Below, piece by piece: positions 15,294-15,474 of a stretch of DNA of 30,012 nucleotides. A program made the position numbers and the translations under genes. The notes below the pieces were generated by a model that was given only the letters and a program-made list of their open reading frames with translations, searched no databases and was not told the origin of the DNA. The stretch is from Eledone cirrhosa (Eukaryota), in contig CAXHJY010001700.1 in NCBI GenBank assembly GCA_964016885.1, forward strand, positions 1 to 30,012. Reading direction: 5' to 3'. Every line of letters starts with the position of its first letter. Position 1 is the first letter of the stretch.

Positions 15294-15474
15294 ATAGGAA
15301 CCAGTAAGACCCCGACAGCTGAGCTCAAGCCGTTTCGACGGAATTAGCCGTCGAAACGGCTTGAGCTCAGCTGTCGGGGTCTTACTGGTTCCTATTACCC
15401 ACTCTACTACCTCAAGTATTGAGTACTTTGGTGCGTTATGGTCCACCTGGTTCCTTACCACATTTCCTTCGTTA
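15294..15474 (+). mobile_element. Family E (duplicate copy 2) with perfect 48-bp-arm palindrome
   Basis: 15294-15341 and 15348-15395 are exact reverse complements around AATTAG. Confidence 0.8.
15337..15381 (+). ncRNA. 5'-truncated type-I hammerhead (stem II, GAAA, stem III, GUC site, stem I 3' strand); CUGANGA missing
   Basis: GACGG-aattag-CCGTC-GAA-ACGGC-ttgagctca-GCTGT-C-GGGGTC: 5-bp stem III with one G.U pair, palindromic TGAGCTCA loop and a GUC triplet. Confidence 0.65.

What the first reader, a model, noticed from the sequence alone, without database searches (positions are those of the whole stretch)
15294..15395. Perfect palindrome nucleated exactly on hammerhead stem II: a ribozyme hairpin apparently used as a self-primer
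Seen: 48-bp perfect arms around AATTAG (also at 7179-7279). The centre GACGG-aattag-CCGTC is followed by GAA, stem III ACGGC/GCTGT with a palindromic TGAGCTCA loop, a GUC site and GGGGTC. This is a hammerhead lacking only the stem I 5' strand and CUGANGA, which are replaced by the inverted copy. Inference: reverse transcription stopped just past stem II, the cDNA folded on that stem and primed its own second strand. That would give the ribozyme fold a second, DNA-level role and a mechanism for inverted pLTRs. I do not know of this being described but cannot check the literature.
Basis: partly seen in the sequence, partly recalled or inferred. Interest (0 to 1): 0.75.

Follow-up and report, generated by a model that had tools for sequence, protein, structure and literature searches.

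The report
Penelope stub ending at RNA cap
This hairpin is one of about 15,000 mirror-image stubs of a Penelope-type jumping gene, likely made when both ends of a DNA cut copied the same RNA up to its likely capped start, which falls inside the element's predicted ribozyme, rather than by the ribozyme stem priming itself.

Summary
The palindrome is real, and it is the 3' half of a hammerhead motif of a Penelope-like element with Hydra-clade protein motifs. The self-priming idea fails. Uninverted copies (4,996) pair CGGCTA, not GACGG, with the 3' strand of stem II; GACGG is just the inverted arm. About 14,800 similar palindromes have varied junctions. One arm ends at a fixed short site and the other carries an 81-nt tail. 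Either arm can own the spacer (44 vs 31 of 85). At the best possible self-priming hairpin the loop lies on the tail-less arm in 14 of 30 copies, where snap-back cannot produce the tail. Both arms stop at a sharp edge inside loop II (65 of 100 within 12 nt). An extra G precedes that edge (54 vs 6 of 100 in a control), and arms pass the edge together (9 of 10 vs 0 of 83). Best reading: two target-primed cDNAs run off one capped RNA 5' end and are end-joined. The architecture is published, and self-priming was proposed in 2013. This scan noted twin priming and cap-G before on other DNA. A start site that splits the ribozyme is the local twist. No RNA data.

The parts
15297..15341 (-). Short (tail-less) arm: inverted copy of element positions +13..+57 (0 = A of TTTAGTCC in the parent); inferred cDNA primed at the fixed short site
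   Evidence: 20,150 genome sites end at this base next to (TA)n
15341..15347 (+). Junction: 1-nt microhomology (G 15341) and spacer AATTAG, which is parent sequence +7..+12 of the tail arm
   Evidence: 7 of 30 fetched loci share this junction, 5 with the spacer on the other arm
15342..15473 (+). Tail-bearing arm, element positions +7..+138
   Evidence: matches L107:2856-2987
15345..15380 (+). 3' half of the hammerhead motif: stem II 3' strand, GAAA (15353), stem III, GTC site (15373-15375), stem I 3' strand
   Evidence: fold of the intact parent; 4,996 intact-core copies; cleavage not tested
15393..15473 (+). 81-nt tail, present on one arm only
   Evidence: loose ends at both sites in public contigs
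7182..7357 (+). Duplicate of the same insertion inside an 8.1-kb tandem duplication (one G missing)
18761..18847 (-). Third, shorter stub of the same family: tail plus about 6 nt

Best explanation
The palindrome is an abortive insertion of an endonuclease-bearing Penelope-like element, likely made when both ends of a cut in (TA)n primed reverse transcription on the same sense RNA, ran off its likely capped 5' end inside hammerhead loop II, and were likely trimmed and end-joined head to head. Shown: two fixed outer ends 81 nt apart; heterogeneous inner junctions; symmetry between the arms; a sharp inner edge at TTT|AGTCC; an extra G at that edge; coupled read-through of both arms; a full-length parent with an RT and GIY-YIG type ORF. 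Inferred: double-strand cleavage, priming from both ends, that the edge is a capped transcription start, and end-joining by host repair. In the window copy the two cDNAs lost 13 and 6-7 nt before joining over one G, so the centre falls beside stem II by trimming and not because of the stem.
For: Either arm reaches further 5' (short 44, tail 31, equal 10 of 85). In 4 of 85 the arms do not overlap at all (L094, L112, L138, L155; also L016). At the one strong cDNA hairpin (465 genome sites) the loop belongs to the tail arm in 16 and the short arm in 14 of 30 (2 of the 16 typed by eye). 65 of 100 short arms start at -4..+7, 1 at -13..-5, 12 read through, 22 stop earlier. Public contig depth rises about 10-25-fold across that edge. 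The base before position 0 is G in 54 of the first 100 listed sites against 6 of 100 at position +1 (counted by eye; Fisher p 3e-14); single untemplated bases there are 5 G and 1 C in 30 loci. An extra G marks cap copying in L1 (PMC11702581, passage). When the short arm reads through, its partner does too in 9 of 10 with an identified partner, against 0 of 83 otherwise. Both arms share subfamily-diagnostic bases in 50 of 55 (19 expected). In sister family D the edge lies about 55 nt upstream of a complete hammerhead motif, with the same extra G/C in several copies. In vitro a PLE protein cuts and extends both strands from two RNA sites that delimit the tail (PMC11167929).
Against: No RNA 5' end was observed. 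The G control is not composition-matched: its alphabet differs and partner-arm ends inflate C and T at +1. Some listed rows are two sides of one palindrome. Arms that start at +1 are as common as at 0 (11 each of 100), and 11 reach -1..-4, so the edge is a few nt wide. The TATA-like word at -29 is not conserved across subfamilies. A weak hairpin inside loop II overlaps the edge in the predicted fold. The 100 sites are consecutive on one contig and include one duplicated insertion (L091/L092); 15 had no partner mapped. Family B shows scattered ends and no sharp edge in 30 loci. One RNA versus two transcripts of one locus cannot be told apart.
Confidence: 0.83

Rival explanations
1. One reading: the cDNA stops past stem II, folds back on that stem and primes its own second strand.
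For: Junctions cluster near stem II (14,807 palindromes with centres within 30 nt). Both arms come from one subfamily. Self-priming was proposed for PLE palindromes (PMC3846280).
Against: GACGG is not in the parent. Only 1 of 85 junctions has snap-back geometry with a stem of 2 nt or more. cDNAs ending at 0..+6 have unpaired 3' ends. The loop lies on the tail-less arm in 14 of 30 at the best hairpin. A copied second strand could neither add the tail nor stop at one fixed base in 20,150 copies.
Confidence: 0.03
2. Two primers, but both cDNAs stall at a folded or protein-bound hammerhead (loop II hairpin) and not at an RNA end.
For: The edge overlaps a predicted AU/GU hairpin in loop II; PLE hammerheads may be protein-assisted (PMC11167929).
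Against: The extra G is specific to one position. Passing the edge is all-or-none for both arms. RT would have crossed stronger stems first. Families B and D are copied through complete hammerhead motifs. A folded state shared by both passes could still mimic the coupling.
Confidence: 0.09
3. The stubs are a non-autonomous palindromic element that is copied as a unit from a few masters, or an assembly artefact.
For: Some junctions recur; the window is a small contig with homopolymer errors.
Against: Junctions vary widely across 100 consecutive sites; both orientations of the same junction exist; the stubs sit throughout chromosome-size contigs; public contigs show the same ends (which may come from the same sample).
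Confidence: 0.04

Closest known systems
EN+ Penelope-like insertions with an inverted 5'-truncated pLTR and one-sided tail (PMC8557442; PMC3846280)
   Same: Head-to-head inverted copy, tail on one end, partial tandems, microsatellite target.
   Different: Tail is 81 nt, not 30-40 nt; most copies are stubs of about 200 nt with a sharp inner edge; the data favour a sense capped template and two primers over the antisense self-priming proposed in PMC3846280.
Hydra clade of C-terminal EN+ PLEs (PMC8557442, section 11)
   Same: DKT, CxCX5C linker, no CCHH, CxxC and CxH around E and N, hammerhead, (TA)n target.
   Different: RWR instead of RWK; unit slightly over 3 kb; no tree built here.
Poseidon PAc in vitro reaction (PMC11167929)
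   Same: Both strands cut and extended; two internal RT start sites that delimit the tail, near the ORF start.
   Different: The main text read does not derive inverted pLTRs or a cap run-off from this; the PAc ORF starts in stem II, here the ORF starts about 230 nt after the edge.
L1 twin priming and cap-derived G (PMC11702581, passages)
   Same: Second DNA end primes on the same RNA; extra G at full-length 5' junctions; microhomology joining.
   Different: In L1 the two cDNAs cover adjacent RNA segments; here they overlap almost fully and start at fixed sites.
PLE hammerheads with U3-A8 core (PMC4209133, passages)
   Same: Type I fold, long helix II, short helix I, U3-A8 covariant core, palindromic loop 3.
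   Different: Long loop II (about 35 nt) that holds the inferred start site; extended helix III.

Membership tests
EN+ Penelope-like element | Single ORF with RT and C-terminal GIY-YIG endonuclease | tested here: met
   786-codon open frame in L107; RT and GIY-YIG motifs read by eye. Pfam and NCBIfam give no hit on it. Of 17 homologues scanned, 2 have weak RVT_1 and 4 weak GIY-YIG hits, one of them at the cut-off.
EN+ Penelope-like element | pLTRs in partial tandem, inverted 5' copy, one-sided tail | tested here: met
   L107 and 85 of 100 sites
Hydra clade | DKT, CxCX5C linker, no CCHH, CxxC/CxH, (TA)n target | tested here: met
   SDKTG, CNCPDRSIC, one Cys between the GIY and YIG parts, CNLC and CKH in the translation; definition
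Hydra clade | N-terminal RWK motif | tested here: inconclusive
   RWR at the matching place
Hydra clade | Placement in an RT phylogeny | not tested
   No reference Hydra sequences were on hand
Type I hammerhead ribozyme | Three stems around a conserved core with GAAA and NUH | tested here: met
   The MFE fold of the parent is the three-way junction. In 100 listed of 4,996 copies N7 takes all four bases while the stem II words stay; one subfamily extends stem II to 9 bp. Against: fold z-score -0.57, no Rfam hammerhead hit.
Type I hammerhead ribozyme | 3-8 base pair in the core | tested here: inconclusive
   Most copies are U3-A8, a known PLE variant; a minority subfamily has a C3-A8 mismatch
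Type I hammerhead ribozyme | Self-cleavage at GUC | not testable with these tools
   Needs an in vitro assay; the window's stub lacks the 5' half and cannot form it in cis
Snap-back (self-primed) inversion | Stem of several bp at the junction, loop always from the tail-bearing cDNA | tested here: not met

The most novel reading that the evidence does not exclude
The element starts transcription inside its own hammerhead, so the mRNA 5' end carries only half a ribozyme and cleavage of the complete 3' copy would leave a 41-nt terminal repeat. The two short cDNAs would then be strong-stop DNAs that normally jump to the RNA 3' end, as in retroviruses, and the roughly 15,000 palindromes are failed strand transfers. 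The one tandem examined (L107) leans against this: its two copies differ and the inverted arm matches the upstream copy, which fits read-through of a tandem source.
Probability: 0.1. Interest if true: 0.82.

Novelty: new member of a known kind. Interest (0 to 1): 0.44.

Why it matters
How PLEs form inverted pLTRs and tails is named as an open problem in PMC8557442, and PMC3846280 left open whether the template is sense or antisense. This family gives thousands of independent junctions that point to a sense, capped template copied from both DNA ends, and it names the base where the RNA should start, so one CAGE or 5' RACE experiment tests it. If the start lies in loop II, only read-through RNA carries a complete ribozyme, which bears on what PLE hammerheads are for. 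The ribozyme does not appear to have a second, DNA-level role.

Tried and rejected
Rfam gave only (TA)n noise on the window and no hammerhead on the parent. No RNA holder listed; the laid runs are contigs and cannot show a start. PDB sequence search, Pfam and NCBIfam on the ORF were blank; the protein atlas could not be used. My first clade guess, Neptune, was dropped after reading the Hydra definition. A lenient aligner over-extended arms and was redone with stricter scores. The first subfamily test used the wrong columns and was redone. A TATA box at -29 is not conserved. A 3' splice site as the stop was considered: no common upstream exon is joined at the edge. Long inverted flanks around stubs were not general. 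The host was not identified; an octopus repeat paper (PMC13282606, passages) was checked on a guess and added nothing. Searches that did not find twin priming or cap run-off for PLEs in print; the library lacks most subscription papers, and supplements (for example Figs S1-S2 of PMC11167929) were not read.

Full report
Setting. The window is the whole of contig C1727 of a 3.0-Gb animal genome. It is mostly (TA)n with islands of several Penelope-like (PLE) families. Bases 1825-7376 recur at 9930-15491; five compared islands are 94-99% identical, so the copies at 7179 and 15294 are one event.

Observation. The arms at 15294-15395 are perfect for 48 bp around AATTAG. The 7179 copy is perfect for 31 bp. 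The right arm continues for 81 nt beyond the point where the left arm meets (TA)n.

The family. A 19-mer from the right arm has 37,994 exact matches. Palindromes with centres within 30 nt of stem II number 14,807. 20,150 sites end at the same base as the short arm. L107 holds a full element with a 786-codon open frame between two pLTRs. Pfam, NCBIfam and PDB give no hit. Of 17 homologues scanned, 2 have weak RVT_1 and 4 weak GIY-YIG matches. By eye the protein has DKT, a CxCX5C linker, no CCHH, and CxxC and CxH around E and N, which are Hydra-clade marks (PMC8557442, section 11 read whole); RWK reads RWR, and no tree was built.

The hammerhead. Uninverted copies (4,996 with an intact core) read ACCCC-YTGANAA-G..CGGCTA, a loop of about 35 nt ending TTTAGTCCAG, then AAWTAGCCGTC-GAAAC. 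The parent folds as a type I hammerhead, although the z-score is -0.57 and Rfam does not detect it. N7 varies freely and one subfamily extends stem II. U3-A8 is a known PLE variant (PMC4209133, passages); a minority has C3-A8. GACGG is only the inverted arm. The 20-mer GACGGAATTAGCCGTCGAAA has 161 matches; 0 of 30 fetched have a core upstream, and 7 of 30 share the window's junction, 5 of them with the spacer on the tail-less arm.

Junction survey. I mapped the first 100 short-arm ends on contig C1. Position 0 is the A of TTTAGTCC. Short arms start at -4..+7 in 65, at -13..-5 in 1, further 3' in 22, and read through in 12. A tail arm was mapped in 85: the short arm reaches further in 44, the tail arm in 31, equal in 10. 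In 4 the arms do not overlap. 54 junctions have no insertion, with microhomology of 0, 1, 2, 3 and 4+ nt in 16, 22, 5, 6 and 5 (random expectation 30, 15, 6, 2 for 0-3); 31 have insertions. Snap-back geometry with a stem of at least 2 nt occurs in 1 of 85. The sample includes one duplicated insertion (L091/L092).

Direct test of self-priming. The cDNA has one strong hairpin (6 bp, TTCG loop). Junctions at it number 465. Snap-back can only start from the tail-bearing cDNA, but the loop belongs to the tail arm in 16 and to the short arm in 14 of 30. This is what annealing between two cDNAs predicts.

What the edge is. First, the base before position 0 is G in 54, C in 26 and A in 20 of the first 100 listed sites, against G in 6 of 100 at +1 (counted by eye). 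In 30 fetched loci, 15 of 26 junctions not explained by the partner arm end in G, and single-base inserts are 5 G and 1 C. The control is imperfect, as its alphabet differs. An extra G reflects cap copying in L1 (PMC11702581, passages). Second, read-through is coupled: 9 of 10 read-through short arms with an identified partner have a read-through partner (2 of the 12 had none identified), against 0 of 83 otherwise. The stop is therefore a property of the shared template. Third, public contig depth rises about 10-25-fold across the edge (possibly the same sample). Fourth, family D (window 5043-5384) has a sharp edge about 55 nt upstream of a complete hammerhead motif, with G before it in 3 of 5 non-palindromic short arms and C after it in 3 antisense arms (small numbers). 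Family B is copied through its hammerhead with scattered ends. TTAGTCC fits the YYANWYY initiator (consensus recalled). D. virilis Penelope has an internal promoter in this region (PMC2377424, passages).

Mechanism. Shown: fixed outer ends at +57 and +138, arm symmetry, same-subfamily arms (50 of 55, 19 expected), the edge, the extra G, the coupling. Inferred: the protein binds near the 5' end of its capped mRNA and cuts (TA)n on both strands; each 3' end primes at one of two RNA sites; both cDNAs run off the cap; the ends are trimmed and joined. Long copies would come from read-through RNA, as L107 suggests (one locus). In vitro a PLE protein does extend both strands from two RNA sites that delimit the tail (PMC11167929, parts 1-2 of 4 read).

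What is known. The inverted copy plus tail is standard PLE architecture (PMC8557442, passages; PMC3846280, passages). The latter proposes self-priming on an antisense template and leaves the question open. My searches found no paper that derives inverted pLTRs from twin priming with cap run-off, but the library is incomplete and supplements were not read. The retrozyme preprint 10.64898/2026.07.22.740005 (part 1 of 5) did not bear on the junctions. Earlier notes of this scan reached twin priming and cap-G on other DNA; I read them after forming my view and count them as agreement, not evidence.

Verdict. A real feature and an ordinary kind of element. The proposed ribozyme self-primer is not supported. 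The value lies in strong genomic evidence on an open PLE mechanism and in a predicted start site inside the ribozyme.

Noticed in passing
window 1825-7376 and 9930-15491: 8.1-kb tandem duplication whose copies differ mostly by homopolymer indels; real duplication or low-consensus assembly not resolved.
   Followed up: partly
window 5043-5384, 13152-13481; L212-L241: Family D: another inverted-plus-tail PLE with a hammerhead motif and a sharp edge about 55 nt upstream of it; several junctions repeat the last bases of one arm plus an extra C (L235, L238).
   Followed up: partly
window 1825-2855, 3793-4179; L182-L211: Family B: canonical CTGAAGA hammerhead motif, tail of about 55 nt, 13,079 short ends; a few ends cluster near an AAAATGGCG word (YY1-like, recalled).
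   Followed up: partly
window 25603-26755: A further PLE family with a GIY-YIG fragment on the minus strand (26144-26518) and hammerhead motifs.
   Followed up: no
window 3129-3709, 11238-11820, 27845-28497: A 560-650-nt repeat in (TA)n, three copies, also next to a family E stub in L029; not identified.
   Followed up: no
listing, e.g. C1:2495659, 18769205: A subfamily with C3-A8 in the hammerhead core has amplified, which suggests cleavage is not needed for mobility.
   Followed up: no
L031-L060: About 22 of 30 loci share the junction CTGGAC-G-GAATTAG; it may be an A-to-G derivative of the common CTGGACAG junction or an untemplated G.
   Followed up: no
L107:5500-5600: The downstream copy lacks about 430 nt of 3' UTR that the upstream copy and the inverted arm have; L089, L097 and L143 break at a similar distance, which suggests a deleted subfamily.
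   Followed up: partly
window 23672-23935: tRNA-like SINE-type repeat with A and B box-like words (by eye).
   Followed up: no
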